Virus record (IMG/VR): IMGVR_UViG_3300042321_000183
From: a virus
Lineage: Duplodnaviria > Heunggongvirae > Uroviricota > Caudoviricetes
Length of the DNA stretch: 13,438 nt
Reading direction: 5' to 3' (one strand)
A program made the translations under genes and the position numbers. Numbering within the stretch: position 1 is the first letter of the stretch; each line of letters opens with the position of its first letter. The notes beneath the pieces were generated by a model. That model ran no database searches. It worked only from the letters and a program-made list of their open reading frames with translations, and was not told the origin of the DNA. This document shows positions 607 through 7,403 of the stretch, piece by piece.

Positions 607-640
607 AAAAAAAGCCTCCATTTCTGGGGGCTTTTCTTTT
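607..640. terminator. Bidirectional intrinsic terminator between convergent genes
   Basis: AAAAAAA-GCCTCCA-TTTC-TGGGGGC-TTTTCTTTT; stem 614-620/625-631, U-tracts on both strands, GAAA loop on the minus strand. Confidence 0.8.
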
Positions 641-842
641 ATTTTGATAGTCTCTTTTGTTTAAGAGGCCACATTTTACTTCTCAATCTAAGCTTTGTAT
701 CAGCTTCCTTCATATAATTACCATTAATTGGATTAGGAGGAGCCACCTTAGGTGCAGGTCTTGGTTTACCTGATCCTTTAGCTTTACCTGCAGTCATTGG
801 CTTTACTGACTTTGCTTGTTTAACGCTTACTTTAGATTTCAT
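639..842 (-). CDS. Small Lys/Pro-rich basic protein (67 aa), putative virion core protein
   Basis: Start moved to ATG 842, which overlaps the upstream stop (TAATG); MKSKVSVKQAK...KPRPAPKVAPPNP...KQKRLSK. Confidence 0.75.
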   Translation of the reverse strand: MKSKVSVKQAKSVKPMTAGKAKGSGKPRPAPKVAPPNPINGNYMKEADTKLRLRSKMWPLKQKRLSK

Positions 843-1309
843 TAGCAACCATTTTTACACTTACCACCCATCTTCATCACAGATTTGCCATACTTAGCTT
901 TAGTTAAACCTACAGCTTTTGTATTTTTACCTTTGTAGTTTTTACCAATTATATCTTTGTAAGAACCTAATTGCATAGATAAGCCATCTTTCTTAGGAGC
1001 AGATAATATACCACCATTTTTCATCATCTTCTTAGGTACCATAGAAGCAGCTTCACCACCATATTGCATTTTCTTCTTAGGAGTTTTACCAGCTTTCTTC
1101 ATAGCGATTGCTATTGCAGCTTGCTTAGCAGCTTTACCACCCATTTTCATCATTTCCATACCAGACATAGCTTTTTTCTTAGCACCTGCAATCTTATCTG
1201 CAAATGTAGGATTAGGATTATTATCTATACCTTTTTTTACTGATAACATTCCAAACGCTGTTTTTTCAGCTTTTTTCATCTTTGCAATTCCATTTTGAGC
1301 TTTCTTCAT
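842..1309 (-). CDS. Lys/Met-rich basic protein with repeated [AM]-[KQ]-x-G(G) motifs
   Basis: 155 aa, about 24% Lys by hand count; KKAQNG, KKAMSG, MMKMGG, KMQYGG, MMKNGG, KAKYG, VMKMGG, KCKNG; contains a KQAAIAIA segment seen in phage basic proteins. Confidence 0.8.
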   Translation of the reverse strand: MKKAQNGIAKMKKAEKTAFGMLSVKKGIDNNPNPTFADKIAGAKKKAMSGMEMMKMGGKAAKQAAIAIAMKKAGKTPKKKMQYGGEAASMVPKKMMKNGGILSAPKKDGLSMQLGSYKDIIGKNYKGKNTKAVGLTKAKYGKSVMKMGGKCKNGC

Positions 1310-1327
1310 TTTTTATAATTTAATATT

Positions 1328-1717
1328 TTAACAATTCCATTTACGAAGTGATTTATTAATTCTGCTATTAGGATCATTAGCTGTCTTAGCAGATGTAAGT
1401 TTCTTTTTCATACCTGACATTCTAGAACAGAAAGACTTACGTCTACTTGCTGCTTTAGAACCAGCTTTAAGCTTTGATGGTTTAGTTGTAACAGCTGTCT
1501 TTAGTTTGCTGCCTGGGTTAGCTCTTCTATAAGAAGCTACACCTTTAGCATTCAATCCACCTTCAGGATTCTTTCCTTCTTTGCGTTGCCATGCTGGTGT
1601 AGAACCACCACTTTTTTGGTAGCCCATTTTATTTCTAACTTCCTTAGGGAGTTTAGCCAAACCAGGTTTCTTAGAACTATCTACTGGTTTTAGAGAAGCT
1701 TTTTTAATTGTAGCCAT
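1328..1717 (-). CDS. Basic phage protein with DUF6321-like C-terminal module
   Basis: TPAWQRKEGKNPEGGLNAKG...RRKSFCSRMSGM...DPNSRINKSLRKWNC is a widespread phage module (recalled as DUF6321); N-terminus MATIKKA. Confidence 0.8.
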   Translation of the reverse strand: MATIKKASLKPVDSSKKPGLAKLPKEVRNKMGYQKSGGSTPAWQRKEGKNPEGGLNAKGVASYRRANPGSKLKTAVTTKPSKLKAGSKAASRRKSFCSRMSGMKKKLTSAKTANDPNSRINKSLRKWNC

Positions 1718-1719
1718 AG

Positions 1720-2232
1720 CTATTTCTTTTTACCTTTATATTTGTAATCAGGATTATCTTTGTGCCATTTCTTTGTAGAAGCTACACCCTGTTTAACAGT
1801 TTTGGCTCTTCCAATCTTTGTAAGATCTATTGTATCCCACTTGCCTTTGTCTTTGGTAGGATGGTTAACCATAATGTTACCCTTCTTACCTTTTCCAACT
1901 CCTGTAGGACTAGTCTTTTTATATACTAAATGCTTCTCTCCACCAGCCATTACTTTTACCTTCCCTCCATCTTCCATGGTTTTTTTAACACAGTTGTTAA
2001 CTATTCTACCACCTTTTTTCTTTGTACCCTTCTTAACATACCCTGTCCAACATTTTATCTTACCACCATTCTTTAATGATGTACCATCTTTTTTAATTAG
2101 ATGACCATTAGGAACAGGTGTTATAGCACCTTTGATAGCTGGAAGTGTATCTCCATTTCTAAGAACTCTTTTACCTACATAAGCTTCTGCTTTCTGTGGG
2201 TTATAAACTTTTGTCTTAGGTATTCTAGCCAT
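1720..2232 (-). CDS. Basic mosaic phage protein containing a CW-x-GY...NC module
   Basis: 170 aa, Lys-rich; KCWTGYVKKGTKKKGGRIVNNCVKK module is flanked by SLKNGG and TMEDGG. Confidence 0.8.
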   Translation of the reverse strand: MARIPKTKVYNPQKAEAYVGKRVLRNGDTLPAIKGAITPVPNGHLIKKDGTSLKNGGKIKCWTGYVKKGTKKKGGRIVNNCVKKTMEDGGKVKVMAGGEKHLVYKKTSPTGVGKGKKGNIMVNHPTKDKGKWDTIDLTKIGRAKTVKQGVASTKKWHKDNPDYKYKGKKK

Positions 2233-2681
2233 TATTTTTTCATCTTCTTTAATGTCATTGCTAAACGAGCACGTTGACCTAATTTACCTTTTGCTTTGGC
2301 AGCCTTAGCAAGCTTAGCAGCAGGGATAGGTTTACCTGGTTTAGCACCAAGTTGAGCACGTAAAGCTCCTGGCTTCTTAATAGCTTTTTGAATCCATTTG
2401 CCATCTTTAGCTTTAGGATTTTCTTGACTAGCTATATATTTTTTTTCTTCTGGTGTAAGAGTGTTATATCTAACAGAATCAGCACTATTCATCATAGCTT
2501 TTCTACTATTCTGTTTTTCTAAATTATACAAATCTTTACCAGTAGATCTATAATATCTATCTCCTTGAGAAGTTTTAAATCTATCAAGTTTATCATAGGT
2601 ACCAGTTTTACTATCCATAGTTGTACGTGTCCCTACAGACATTCCAGTTTGAGCCTTTTTAACCTTTTTAGCTGTTGCCAT
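2232..2681 (-). CDS. Basic phage protein with C-terminal KWIQKAIKKPGAL module
   Basis: 149 aa; N-terminal KKAQTG; C-terminal KWIQKAIKKPGALRAQLG...KLGQRARLAMTLKKM module follows KAKDG. Confidence 0.8.
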   Translation of the reverse strand: MATAKKVKKAQTGMSVGTRTTMDSKTGTYDKLDRFKTSQGDRYYRSTGKDLYNLEKQNSRKAMMNSADSVRYNTLTPEEKKYIASQENPKAKDGKWIQKAIKKPGALRAQLGAKPGKPIPAAKLAKAAKAKGKLGQRARLAMTLKKMKK

Positions 2682-2683
2682 GA

Positions 2684-3019
2684 TTATTTCTTTTTAGATT
2701 TTAACTTAGGAGCCATTTCACCACTACGCTTTTCTATCAATTCAGATTCACGCTTTAACGCTGCTTTTCTGAATGTAGCTGGATTCATTTCTTTGTAAGC
2801 TGGAGTCTTCTTATCAAGACCATAAGACTTTTCAGAACGTCCCATACTAGTAGCACCAAGTTCTTTATCTTTTTTTAATGTAGGTTTCATTCTAGCATCA
2901 GCTAGAGTAGCCTCTTGAACTTTAGTCCAAGCACCATTAGGATCTACAGGACCTACACGCTTATCAGAAGCTTTCATTCCTGAAAGACTACCCATTCTGT
3001 CTTTTTTTACCTTTGCCAT
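2684..3019 (-). CDS. Basic hypothetical protein (111 aa)
   Basis: Lys-rich; N-terminus MAKVKK; start overlaps the upstream stop (TAATG at 3019). Confidence 0.75.
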   Translation of the reverse strand: MAKVKKDRMGSLSGMKASDKRVGPVDPNGAWTKVQEATLADARMKPTLKKDKELGATSMGRSEKSYGLDKKTPAYKEMNPATFRKAALKRESELIEKRSGEMAPKLKSKKK

Positions 3020-3489
3020 TATTTTTTAGTTTTAGCTTTAATTTTCTTTTCTTGTTTTAACATAGCAGCTGTAGGCTTCTTTCCAGACCCTTTGTTAGCT
3101 CTAATGTTATCCCATAGTCCTCTTTTAGAATATGAACCATCAGCACGCTTTAGCATACCACCATTTTTCATACCTGCAACTTCATCTATAGCTTTAGAAA
3201 CTTTTGCAGCAGTTAATTTAGGTTTTTTAGTAGCTGCTTTTGCTTTCTTTATTTCAGCTTCTGAGAAGTTAGAAATCATTTCTTTCAAAGGATTATTTGT
3301 CTTAGCTGAAGCTTTCTTCTTAGCCATAGCAGCTTTACCAAACACACCAGATTTGTCTAGCTCTTTAGCTTGCTTTCTGCCAATCTCATCTATTTCAGAC
3401 TTCTTGTACATTTTACCAGTCATTTCACCTGGTACCATTTTAGAAGCTGATTTCTTAATACCAGCTTGAGCTTTCTTAATTGTTGCCAT
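3019..3489 (-). CDS. Lys/Ala-rich, histone H1-like basic protein with C-terminal GLWDNIRA module
   Basis: 156 aa; MATIKKAQAG; KKAKAATKKPKLTAAK; GMKNGG precedes MLKRADGSYSKRGLWDNIRANKG. Confidence 0.8.
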   Translation of the reverse strand: MATIKKAQAGIKKSASKMVPGEMTGKMYKKSEIDEIGRKQAKELDKSGVFGKAAMAKKKASAKTNNPLKEMISNFSEAEIKKAKAATKKPKLTAAKVSKAIDEVAGMKNGGMLKRADGSYSKRGLWDNIRANKGSGKKPTAAMLKQEKKIKAKTKK

Positions 3490-3811: not shown

Positions 3812-4086
3812 TTTATTTCAAACGTTATAGTTGCTGAACTTTTAATACTCTTAGACAGATTCAGTCTAATCTTGAACATGTTATGAAACTTTAAGATTTC
3901 TTCTAGCAACATTTCATTGTACATGGGTACTGAAGGTGCCAATCTAAAGTGATACGAATTAGGATTTTTAGTAATCTCTAACGTAGATAGTTCATCAACT
4001 GAGGATATAATTCCCTCAAGGTGTGCAAAATAAGCAAGTTCATTATCTTGCATCACCTGAGGAAAAAATTTCTTGTTAATTTGCAT
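3793..4086 (-). CDS. Hypothetical protein (97 aa)
   Basis: TAATG-coupled to the ferritin-like gene; globular-looking composition; no recognised family. Confidence 0.75.
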   Translation of the reverse strand: MQINKKFFPQVMQDNELAYFAHLEGIISSVDELSTLEITKNPNSYHFRLAPSVPMYNEMLLEEILKFHNMFKIRLNLSKSIKSSATITFEINLEDTQ

Positions 4087-4490
4087 TAAGACAAGGTTAA
4101 TAAGTATTTAGTTTTTGCTGCTTCACCACTTAGGGCATCAGCTAAATTGGCTATATCGTGATAGCTGTTTGATTCAGCATATCTCTTTAAGTTACTAGAG
4201 AAGTCCATTAGTGCTGTGACAACTGAATTAGAGTCTGCACCGCTCAATGCTTCTATTTTATATACACCAGGACGTTTACCTGTATAACCCATAAGCTTCT
4301 CTATCACACCATCTTTAAAGTCATGTACATAATCATACAATCCTCCTAAAGCTTGGTGCTCAGCATAACTTTTTGTCTGCCAATGTAATAGGTGTAGTTG
4401 CTCATGGAAATATGTAAGCTTCCCAGCTATTGTTTCCAAGTTTAATTCCCCTGATTTCATCATCTCTTCAGGGAATAATGATTTTGCCAT
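4086..4490 (-). CDS. Dps/ferritin-like four-helix protein (DUF5856-like)
   Basis: HLLHWQTKSYAEHQALGGLYD...KDGVIEKLMG; the His(15 residues)Asp(4 residues)Glu spacing matches Dps ferroxidase ligands. Confidence 0.8.
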   Translation of the reverse strand: MAKSLFPEEMMKSGELNLETIAGKLTYFHEQLHLLHWQTKSYAEHQALGGLYDYVHDFKDGVIEKLMGYTGKRPGVYKIEALSGADSNSVVTALMDFSSNLKRYAESNSYHDIANLADALSGEAAKTKYLLTLS

Positions 4491-7274: not shown

Positions 7275-7403
7275 TTATCTGCCCTGTCTGTTGTAAGGCT
7301 TAGTTGCTTTGTCCTTAGGACCTTTGAACTTAGTAGCCTTTCCTCCTTTGCGTTTTCCAAAGGTAATTTTCTTAGCATTTGATGCTCCTTTTGCTTTTGC
7401 CAT
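7275..7403 (-). CDS. 42-aa highly basic peptide ending YNRQGR (not in ORF track)
   Basis: MAKAKGASNAKKITFGKRKGGKATKFKGPKDKATKPYNRQGR*; leader TAAATAACCAAC-ATG; the C-terminus resembles small phage proteins ending Y-x-G-Q-G-[RK]. Confidence 0.8.
   Translation of the reverse strand: MAKAKGASNAKKITFGKRKGGKATKFKGPKDKATKPYNRQGR

What the first reader, a model, noticed from the sequence alone, without database searches (positions are those of the whole stretch)
842..3489. Recurring [AMLCQ]-[KQE]-x-G(G) motif sits at module boundaries, suggesting polyproteins cut by a maturation protease
Seen: the motif occurs at least 15 times across five genes (AQNG, MKMGG twice, MQYGG, MKNGG twice, AKYG, CKNG, QKSGG, LKNGG, MEDGG, AQTG, AKDG, AQAG, plus the variant AMSG). 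It falls directly before recognisable modules: QKSGG|STPAWQRKEGK, KAKDG|KWIQKAIKKPG, LKNGG|KIKCWTGY...CVKKTMEDGG|, and MKNGG|MLKRADGSYSKRGLWDN. I recall several of these as stand-alone small proteins in other phages. Known: adenovirus protease cleaves core precursors at (M/L/I)xGG and ASFV pS273R cleaves at GG-X. Inferred: an analogous processing code in a tailed phage, with one extra spacer residue, releases many short basic peptides inside the head. Alternatively the motif is a packaging or scaffold-binding tag.
Basis: partly seen in the sequence, partly recalled or inferred. Interest (0 to 1): 0.8.

Follow-up and report, generated by a model that had tools for sequence, protein, structure and literature searches.

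The report
Gly-Gly junction code in phage cargo
Seven small lysine-rich genes of an uncultured crAss-like phage are strings of swappable mini-modules joined by a short peptide ending in Gly-Gly, which sits exactly where T4-like phages carry their head-protease cut site in front of the same modules; so it is probably a loading or cutting signal for proteins packed in the virus head, though no cut and no protease has been shown.

Summary
In the six motif-region genes (842-3489, minus strand) the strict motif [MLFYIQ]-[KQE]-x-G-G occurs 8 times against 0.5 expected from shuffles.

In crAss-like relatives the same mini-modules (about a dozen) are dealt out differently among 5-8 genes, and the joints almost always carry the motif. 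In two relatives (90% and 100% complete by CheckV) the motif is 40-60 times denser in this cluster and in cargo proteins C1/C2 than in all other proteins, where it tends to be rarer than chance.

The same modules (DUF6321, the Cys-Trp module, the GLWDNI module) also occur in T4-like phages. There they sit behind T4-type capsid-targeting leaders, and each joint reads hydrophobic-x-Glu, the gp21 cut site. Both large contigs of that kind encode the gp21-type protease.

This makes a loading or processing signal the best reading. Cleavage remains inference: eight protease families were sought in crAss-like relatives and none was found, some joints have lost the motif, and no proteomic data settle it.

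The adenovirus analogy holds only loosely. This scan has noted the same motif on other DNA (e1-1852139, e1-1852795, e1-5387531, e1-5345523). I found no published description.

The parts
639..842 (-). P0, a 67-aa basic gene and the seventh member of the cluster. It has no motif. Its real start is the ATG at 840-842, which overlaps the P1 stop.
   Evidence: conserved 57-68 aa orthologue closes the cluster in L004, L005, L007, L009, L032, L033, L058
842..1309 (-). P1, 155 aa, 24% Lys. It has the leader MKKAQNG (1289-1309) and motifs MKMGG (1136-1150), MQYGG (1055-1069), MKNGG (1010-1024) and MKMGG (863-877). It ends in the tail KCKNGC (845-862).
   Evidence: the tail KCKNGC / MKKCKYGCK follows a GG motif in the relatives that carry it (six of the seven examined)
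1328..1717 (-). P2, 129 aa. It has the leader MATIKK, the junction YQKSGG (1604-1621) and a DUF6321 module (1331-1603).
   Evidence: Pfam PF19846 8.9e-21; junction classes; AF2 model of the module pLDDT 83
1720..2232 (-). P3, 170 aa. The N-module ends in LKNGG (2062-2076). The Cys-Trp module runs 1963-2061 and ends in MEDGG (1963-1977). A beta-rich C-module runs 1723-1962.
2232..2681 (-). P4, 149 aa. The leader is MATAKKVKKAQTG (2643-2681). The C-module begins at AKDGKW (2235-2411).
2684..3019 (-). P5, 111 aa, no motif. The joint between its two modules is degenerate here (..TSMG|RSEKS). L032 has MKSGG at the same place, and L004 and L007 have MAKNG.
3019..3489 (-). P6, 156 aa. It has the leader MATIKKAQAG (3460-3489), the junction MKNGG (3157-3171) and the RADGSYS/GLWDNI module (3022-3156).

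Best explanation
The seven genes encode small, mostly disordered, lysine-rich proteins that are loaded into the phage head or tail as cargo and leave with the DNA. Each is a string of one to four promiscuous mini-modules.

The peptide hydrophobic-[K/Q/E]-x-G-G, and its N-terminal form MA[T/K]xKK..AQxG, is this lineage's leader and junction signal. It plays the part that the 10-residue capsid-targeting sequence and the hydrophobic-x-Glu cut site play in T4-like phages.

Most likely each module is marked for loading and then cut loose after Gly-Gly by a protease not yet identified, either of the phage or of the host.

Shown: the motif, its position at joints, its restriction to cargo-type genes, and the swap of junction type between phage lineages. 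Inferred: packaging, and above all the cut.
For: 1. Enrichment and a fixed P5-P1 context.

2. Orthologous clusters in seven crAss-like relatives reshuffle the same modules at the motif.

3. The RADGSYS module lies in at least 1470 longer proteins. Several of them carry Pfam crAss_CARG1 (cargo protein 1), lysozyme, glucosaminidase, SLT, YkuD or ART-PolyVal domains. It is bracketed by GG motifs on both sides when internal.

4. Genome-wide, in two relatives (90% and 100% complete), the strict motif per 1000 aa is 5.7 in the basic cluster, 3.7 in C1/C2 cargo, 0.4 in the virion RNA polymerase and 0.09 elsewhere. Elsewhere that is 5 observed against 10.8 expected.

5. For 71 non-redundant contexts in front of DUF6321, the same position holds one of three things:
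- a start codon (32)
- a GG or xG motif (about 29)
- hydrophobic-x-Glu (about 12, all in long ORFs).

6. Several of those long ORFs open with T4 CTS-like leaders (MKTFKAFISE, MITFKQFLDE, MKKFNEYINE). They also string the Cys-Trp and GLWDNI modules, with a hydrophobic-x-Glu at each joint. Cultured cyanophages Sf-CH8 and S-RIM4 show the same.

7. Both large contigs of that class encode Peptidase_S77, the T4 gp21 family (E about 5e-34). None of nine GG-class or start-class records does.

8. A third lineage uses its own shared leader, MGDISLRGxG...[F/M]A[K/S]GG, on several different small genes. In L172 and L164 these lie between the portal gene and the capsid gene.

9. In crAss001 cargo protein gp45, the two cryo-EM-resolved pieces (214-245 and 425-552, PMC10172136) begin just after AYGG and AFGG/TQGG.

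10. T4 CTS facts are taken from PMC9026906.
Against: - No protease of families C5, C48, C39, S78, S77, S14, Prok-JAB or MPTase-PolyVal was found in crAss-like relatives, four of them at least 90% complete.
- HExxH motifs in cargo are present in one relative and absent in the closest one.
- The crAss001 structure paper mentions no protease or processing.
- Some conserved joints lack the motif: window P5, KAKNG|MLK in L007, KAKSGA|MIK in L033.
- Motifs can lie only 6-9 residues apart, and 5-9 residues from the C-terminus. That would give tiny peptides and fits a hinge or docking tag as well.
- Packaging of these seven proteins has not been measured.
- The window's own genome was not available.
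Confidence: 0.45

Rival explanations
1. The cargo role and the motif are the same as above, but the motif is not cut. It is a portable docking or address tag, or a flexible hinge, that lets each module be loaded and later threaded unfolded through the portal and tail.
For: - No protease was found.
- Motifs occur in tandem 6-9 residues apart and close to termini.
- The C2-like cargo has WLDKY-EQGG at its N-terminus and GG-WLNKYK at its C-terminus, like anchors on hinges.
- The joint motif can decay without loss of the gene.
- The crAss001 authors model gp45 as reaching from capsid to tail and propose ejection of partly unfolded cargo (PMC10172136).
- P3 is predicted mostly disordered, pLDDT 39.8.
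- An earlier follow-up on other DNA reached this view (e1-5345523).
Against: - Internal joints of a string that is already addressed at its N-terminus need no further address.
- In T4-like phages the same internal joints carry a cut site, not a targeting sequence.
- A plain hinge would not keep Met or an aromatic at P5 and Lys at P4.
- The tendency to avoid the motif in non-cargo proteins fits a signal that does harm elsewhere.
Confidence: 0.33
2. The motif has no function of its own. It is a relic of repeated gene fusion (a former N-terminal leader plus a Lys tail), or of recombination at short nucleotide matches. Or the Met in KKK-M-K-x-GG marks internal translation starts in an A-rich context.
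For: - Internal linkers such as PVKKAKSGG look like the N-terminal leaders MATVKKAQxG.
- Genes abut with one-base overlaps.
- Met is the commonest P5 residue.
- GG is mostly GGT GGT.
Against: - The same junction carries L, F, Y or Q instead of M in relatives, so it is not a start codon.
- Stand-alone modules lack GG, so GG is not an old N-terminus.
- GGT is simply the favoured Gly codon of these genes: 18 of 22 in GG pairs against 41 of 65 elsewhere.
- The motif is kept in thousands of distant proteins and is specific to cargo.
Confidence: 0.08
3. The motif is a structural or DNA-binding element of a nucleoprotein. It would be a K-hydrophobic-K / N-G-G / K-hydrophobic-K-K cationic beta-hairpin or turn that helps condense DNA, in the manner of histone H1 or protamine motifs.
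For: - Residues after GG are often K, then a hydrophobic residue, then K-K, and P3 is often Asn, Ser or Asp, which favour turns.
- The proteins are 19-24% Lys.
Against: - The motif is equally typical of neutral or acidic cargo proteins, where P4 is Glu or Gln.
- The residues after GG are whatever module follows.
- It does not explain the lineage-specific swap with hydrophobic-x-Glu.
Confidence: 0.07

Closest known systems
Bacteriophage T4 internal proteins IPI-III and Alt, with their capsid-targeting sequence removed by prohead protease gp21
   Same: Both involve small basic proteins loaded into the head and injected. A short shared N-terminal leader sits on otherwise unrelated proteins, and the locus is hyperplastic. 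The very same modules (DUF6321, Cys-Trp, GLWDNI) occur behind CTS-like leaders and hydrophobic-x-Glu joints in T4-like phages.
   Different: The leader and joint sequences are unrelated (MAT-x-KK..AQxG and hydrophobic-K-x-GG). No S77 protease is present in crAss-like relatives. Packaging and cutting are unmeasured here.
Polyvalent proteins of phages and conjugative elements (Iyer et al. 2017, PMC5512222), and crassvirus cargo proteins C1/C2 (crAss001 gp45/gp46, PMC10172136)
   Same: The modules of this cluster are fused into C1-type cargo proteins in other phages, next to lysozyme, glucosaminidase and ART-PolyVal domains. C1 homologues carry the same GG motif at domain borders.
   Different: Here the modules are spread over seven small genes rather than one giant protein. 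The polyvalent-protein paper does not mention a glycine junction motif, and the proposed MPTase was not found.
Adenovirus core precursors cut by adenain at (M/L/I)-x-G-G|x, and ASFV polyproteins cut by pS273R after G-G (clan CE). Recalled from established knowledge, not tested here.
   Same: Basic core proteins, and a Gly-Gly at P2-P1 with a hydrophobic residue upstream.
   Different: The hydrophobic residue is at P5, not P4, and Lys is at P4. No clan CE protease (C5, C48) is detectable in relatives. The virus lineage is unrelated.
Double-glycine leader peptides of bacteriocins cut by C39 peptidases
   Same: In one phage lineage a shared N-terminal leader of about 20 residues ends in G-G and is followed by varied small products.
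   Different: The leader sequence is unrelated. No C39 domain was found in the phage records. These leaders are processed during export, not virion assembly.

Membership tests
DUF6321 (Pfam PF19846) | Match to the family model above its gathering score | tested here: met
   P2 residues 48-127 score 74.8 bits against a cut-off of 28.5, E 8.9e-21
T4-type internal protein / CTS system | A 10-residue N-terminal CTS with aromatic residues at positions 4 and 7, and hydrophobic-x-Glu at positions 8-10 | tested here: not met
   The window's leaders are MATIKKAQAG, MATAKKVKKAQTG and MKKAQNG. CTS-like leaders occur only in the T4-like strings.
T4-type internal protein / CTS system | A gp21-type prohead protease (Peptidase_S77) in the genome | tested here: not met
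   Absent from five crAss-like relatives, four of them at least 90% complete. The window's own genome is not held.
T4-type internal protein / CTS system | Proteins present in the mature head and injected | not testable with these tools
   Support is indirect only: fusion of the modules into cargo protein 1
Adenain / clan CE processed core proteins | A clan CE cysteine protease is encoded | tested here: not met
   Peptidase_C5 and Peptidase_C48 gave no match in five relatives
Adenain / clan CE processed core proteins | Consensus (M/L/I)-x-G-G|x with the hydrophobic residue at P4 | tested here: not met
   P4 is Lys in 63% of sites. The hydrophobic residue is at P5.
Crassvirus cargo protein 1 (Pfam crAss_CARG1, PF25725) | Presence of the CARG1 domain | tested here: not met
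   No Pfam hit in the seven window proteins. The domain is present in larger proteins that share the RADGSYS module.
Polyvalent proteins (Iyer et al. 2017) | Many unrelated domains in one polypeptide, often with an MPTase for self-processing | tested here: inconclusive
   The window's proteins hold one to four mini-modules. Their modules occur in polyvalent-type proteins. MPTase-PolyVal was not found in relatives.
Double-glycine leader / C39 system | A C39 peptidase domain encoded nearby | tested here: not met
   No match in five records

The most novel reading that the evidence does not exclude
CrAss-like phages and their relatives, for which I found no maturation protease reported, process their head and tail cargo at hydrophobic-K-x-G-G sites with a protease of an unrecognised family, or a recruited host enzyme. 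One gene row would then yield a dozen or more small basic peptides in the particle. The large cargo protein C1 would also be cut into the pieces seen separately in the capsid and the tail barrel.
Probability: 0.3. Interest if true: 0.85.

Novelty: new variant of a known kind. Interest (0 to 1): 0.62.

Why it matters
CrAss-like phages are among the most abundant viruses known, and how they choose and load their cargo proteins is open. A short, lineage-specific peptide in front of every cargo module would give a direct handle. It predicts which unannotated genes are cargo, where the mature proteins begin, and that a processing enzyme may be missing from current annotations.

The same modules are used behind three different leader types in three phage lineages. 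This suggests a general rule: the cargo modules travel between phages, while the address or cut code belongs to the capsid.

It would also offer a tag for loading foreign proteins into such capsids, as the T4 CTS does.

Tried and rejected
- tblastn of P6 and P3 against cultured phages found nothing, probably because of the low-complexity filter. A giant C1-like protein gave one weak hit.
- The whole window has no near match among deposited phages, and no genome is held for it.
- Literature searches found no paper naming DUF6321. They found no report of Gly-Gly processing in tailed phages or of proteolysis of crassvirus cargo.
- AlphaFold2 of P3 gave pLDDT 39.8. This is uninformative about the motif beyond suggesting disorder.
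- The DUF6321 model (pLDDT 83) has no PDB match by Foldseek and none above Z 4.6 by VIA-align. The ESM Atlas gave only viral hypothetical proteins.
- Codon use at GG pairs does not stand out from the rest of these genes, so a DNA-level recombination signal was set aside.
- I re-read the public MALDI peak lists of crAss001 virion gel bands (PMC6235969 supplement) with a peptide-mass fingerprint:
  - Bands 3-9 resolve to gp50+gp47, gp49, portal gp20, gp26+gp22, gp22+gp25, gp25 and gp23. The matched peptides span most of each protein's length.
  - Cargo gp45 (90.8 kDa, 23 usable tryptic peptides) is not detectable in any band of about 70 kDa or more.
  - The sheets for bands 11-13 are not held, and the band 10 list (7 weak peaks) was not fingerprinted, so this neither shows nor excludes that gp45 is cut.
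- HExxH motifs were looked for as a phage-borne zincin. They occur in cargo of one relative and not in the closest one.
- The 327-aa and 222-aa unknown genes between the leader genes and the capsid gene in L164 have no protease annotation in Pfam or PHROGs.
Full report
**What is there.** The window carries seven tightly packed minus-strand genes:
- P0, 639-842
- P1, 842-1309
- P2, 1328-1717
- P3, 1720-2232
- P4, 2232-2681
- P5, 2684-3019
- P6, 3019-3489

Their products are 67-170 aa and 19-24% lysine, and several starts overlap the preceding stop by one base. The neighbours on the same strand are a GH19 endolysin, membrane proteins, a collagen-like fibre, a glycosyltransferase and a DUF5856 protein. 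Earlier notes of this scan place the window in an uncultured freshwater crAss-like phage. The genome itself is not held. Only P2 has a Pfam family, DUF6321. P3's Cys-Trp segment and P2 hit PHROG families of long multi-module proteins.

**The observation.** Against 20,000 shuffles within each protein:
- the loose pattern occurs 18 times against 5.7
- the strict [MLFYIQ][KQE]xGG occurs 8 times against 0.5
- M[KQE]xGG occurs 6 times against 0.14
- GG alone is not enriched.

In 198 non-redundant Lys-rich ORFs from related loci the context of GG is fixed. P5 is Met in 39% of sites, or else Leu or Gln. P4 is Lys in 63%. P3 is K, S, N or M. After GG there is often K, a hydrophobic residue, then K-K. 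GG in ordinary long ORFs has no such context.

**Module boundaries.** The C-terminal module of P6 (MLKRADGSYS..GLWDNIRANKGSGKKPT) is found at about 90% identity in more than 560 viral contigs. It occurs as stand-alone genes of about 51 aa, at the end of basic proteins of 110-190 aa, and inside giant proteins. Among 107 copies in longer proteins, 101 have GG 2-4 residues upstream (FKNGG, LANGG, LKNGG, YKNGG, MKAGG and others). Internal copies are followed by a second GG motif 38-56 residues on.

Seven crAss-like relatives carry the same gene row. About a dozen modules are distributed differently over 5-8 genes, and the joints are nearly always at the motif. The N-module of P3 ends in an invariant L-K-x-G-G and is then followed by five different modules in eight phages.

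Nearly every gene starts with MA[T/K][I/V]KK followed within a few residues by [A/M][K/Q]xG(G). Internal linkers such as PVKKAKSGG look like these leaders.

AKDG belongs to the module that begins (A)KDGKW. And the joint inside P5 has lost the motif in this phage, while L032 keeps MKSGG there.

**Link to virion cargo.** Giant proteins that hold the RADGSYS module carry Pfam crAss_CARG1 (crassvirus cargo protein 1) and glucosaminidase. Precomputed domains on other such proteins include lysozyme, SLT, YkuD, Gly-zipper and ART-PolyVal. These giants are littered with the motif between recognisable domains.

I fetched two relatives whole, 90% and 100% complete by CheckV. The strict motif per 1000 residues is:
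- 5.7 in the basic row
- 3.7 in the C1/C2-type cargo genes beside the virion RNA polymerase
- 0.4 in the polymerase
- 0.09 in all other ORFs (5 observed, 10.8 expected from shuffles).

A 193-aa C2-like protein of one relative equals the 1519-aa protein of the other with whole domains removed exactly at GG or AQNG joints.

In crAss001, cargo protein gp45 has 20 GG pairs in 842 residues, while gp46 and gp49 have one each. The two pieces resolved by cryo-EM (214-245 and 425-552, PMC10172136) begin just after AYGG and AFGG/TQGG.

**The comparison that bears on function.** I collected 71 non-redundant sequences in front of the DUF6321 module. At the same position they hold one of three things:
- a start codon within 15 residues (32, mostly MAK[S/T]|PAW)
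- a GG or xG motif 1-3 residues upstream (about 29)
- hydrophobic-x-Glu (about 12: DLEE|T, IEE|AKS, DLDE|S, IDE|V, LVE|GT).

The third class lies only in long ORFs. Several of these ORFs begin with leaders such as MKTFKAFISE, MITFKQFLDE and MKKFNEYINE. These have the aromatic residues at positions 4 and 7 and the hydrophobic-x-Glu at positions 8-10 that define the T4 capsid-targeting sequence and its gp21 cut (PMC9026906). The ORFs string the Cys-Trp module, a GLWDNI module, a HicA-like module and DUF6321, with hydrophobic-x-Glu at each joint. Cultured T4-like cyanophages show the same: Sf-CH8 gp72 has EEVIDE|KSPAW, with a CTS-bearing gp73 next to it, and S-RIM4 gp108 is similar.

Both large contigs of this class encode Peptidase_S77. 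None of nine GG-class or start-class records does.

A third lineage puts one shared leader, MGDISLRGxG...[F/M]A[K/S]GG, on two or three different small genes per locus. In L172 and L164 these genes lie between the portal and the capsid gene.

So the modules move between phage lineages, while the leader and joint type goes with the lineage. In the one lineage where the enzyme is known, that type is its cut site.

**What remains open.** No cut has been seen. Pfam models for adenain (C5), Ulp1 (C48), C39, HK97-type S78, T4-type S77, ClpP, Prok-JAB and MPTase-PolyVal find nothing in crAss-like relatives, four of them at least 90% complete. HExxH motifs are not shared by all. The crAss001 papers mention no processing.

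My fingerprint of the deposited MALDI lists identifies the large polymerase subunits, portal and tail proteins at their expected sizes. It does not find gp45 in any band of about 70 kDa or more. The sheets for bands 11-13 are not held, and band 10's seven weak peaks were not fingerprinted, so this is inconclusive.

Tandem motifs a few residues apart, motifs close to the C-terminus and decayed joints fit an uncut docking tag or hinge about as well. P3 is predicted disordered. DUF6321 folds confidently into a small helical domain without a solved relative, so what the modules do in the host is unknown.

**Verdict.** The reading as a cargo junction and leader code is well supported. Cutting after Gly-Gly is the most likely single mechanism (about 0.45), with an uncut address or hinge close behind (about 0.33). 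The adenovirus parallel is only a loose functional analogy.

The same motif and cassette were noted by this scan on other DNA, and those follow-ups reached compatible verdicts. The cross-lineage swap at identical module borders was tested here after a lead from those notes. I found no published description.

Noticed in passing
window 1331-1603 (minus strand): The DUF6321 module is kept at 75-96% protein identity across crAss-like, T4-like and other phages, and at 66-80% nucleotide identity with pelagiphages and cyanophages. It is almost always the last module and ends in W-N-C. AlphaFold2 gives pLDDT 83, with no solved relative found.
   Followed up: partly
window 842-3489: Each Cys-bearing module has exactly two cysteines (C-x3-C in the tail KCKNGC, C-x19-C in the Cys-Trp module, C-x31-C in DUF6321). 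This may point to disulfides or metal sites in the particle.
   Followed up: no
window 842-3489 compared with the other genes of the window: The basic genes favour GGT for Gly (59 of 87) much more than the other genes of the window (90 of 198). This may be a mark of high expression.
   Followed up: partly
window 7275-7403 (minus strand): A 42-aa very basic ORF lies apart from the cluster, between the fibre gene and the lysis genes. A 42-aa ORF with 29% Lys exists in relative G001 at 68715-68843.
   Followed up: no
window 4086-4490 (minus strand): A DUF5856 protein (Pfam 2.6e-14) lies three genes upstream of the basic row.
   Followed up: no
L175 (IMG/VR contig, ORF holding DUF6321): In a T4-like cargo string, a HicA-like toxin module sits between a CTS-like leader and the Cys-Trp and DUF6321 modules, with each joint reading hydrophobic-x-Glu.
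   Followed up: no
L085:10283-10864 compared with L095:10546-15105: The C2-like cargo protein is 193 aa in one relative and 1519 aa in another. The short form is the long form with three large inserts removed at GG or AQNG joints. Both begin MA-x-WLDKYEQGG and end GG-WLNKYK.
   Followed up: partly
L164:474-1999 and L172:2742-4279: A separate phage lineage with an SU10-type portal has two or three small genes per locus that share the leader MGDISLRGxG..AKGG. In L172 and L164 they lie between the portal and capsid genes, next to a GroES-like gene.
   Followed up: partly
L096:11988-14516 (crAss001 gp45): In the deposited MALDI peak lists of crAss001 virion bands, gp45 is not detectable at about 70 kDa or more, although the equally rare portal protein is.
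   Followed up: partly
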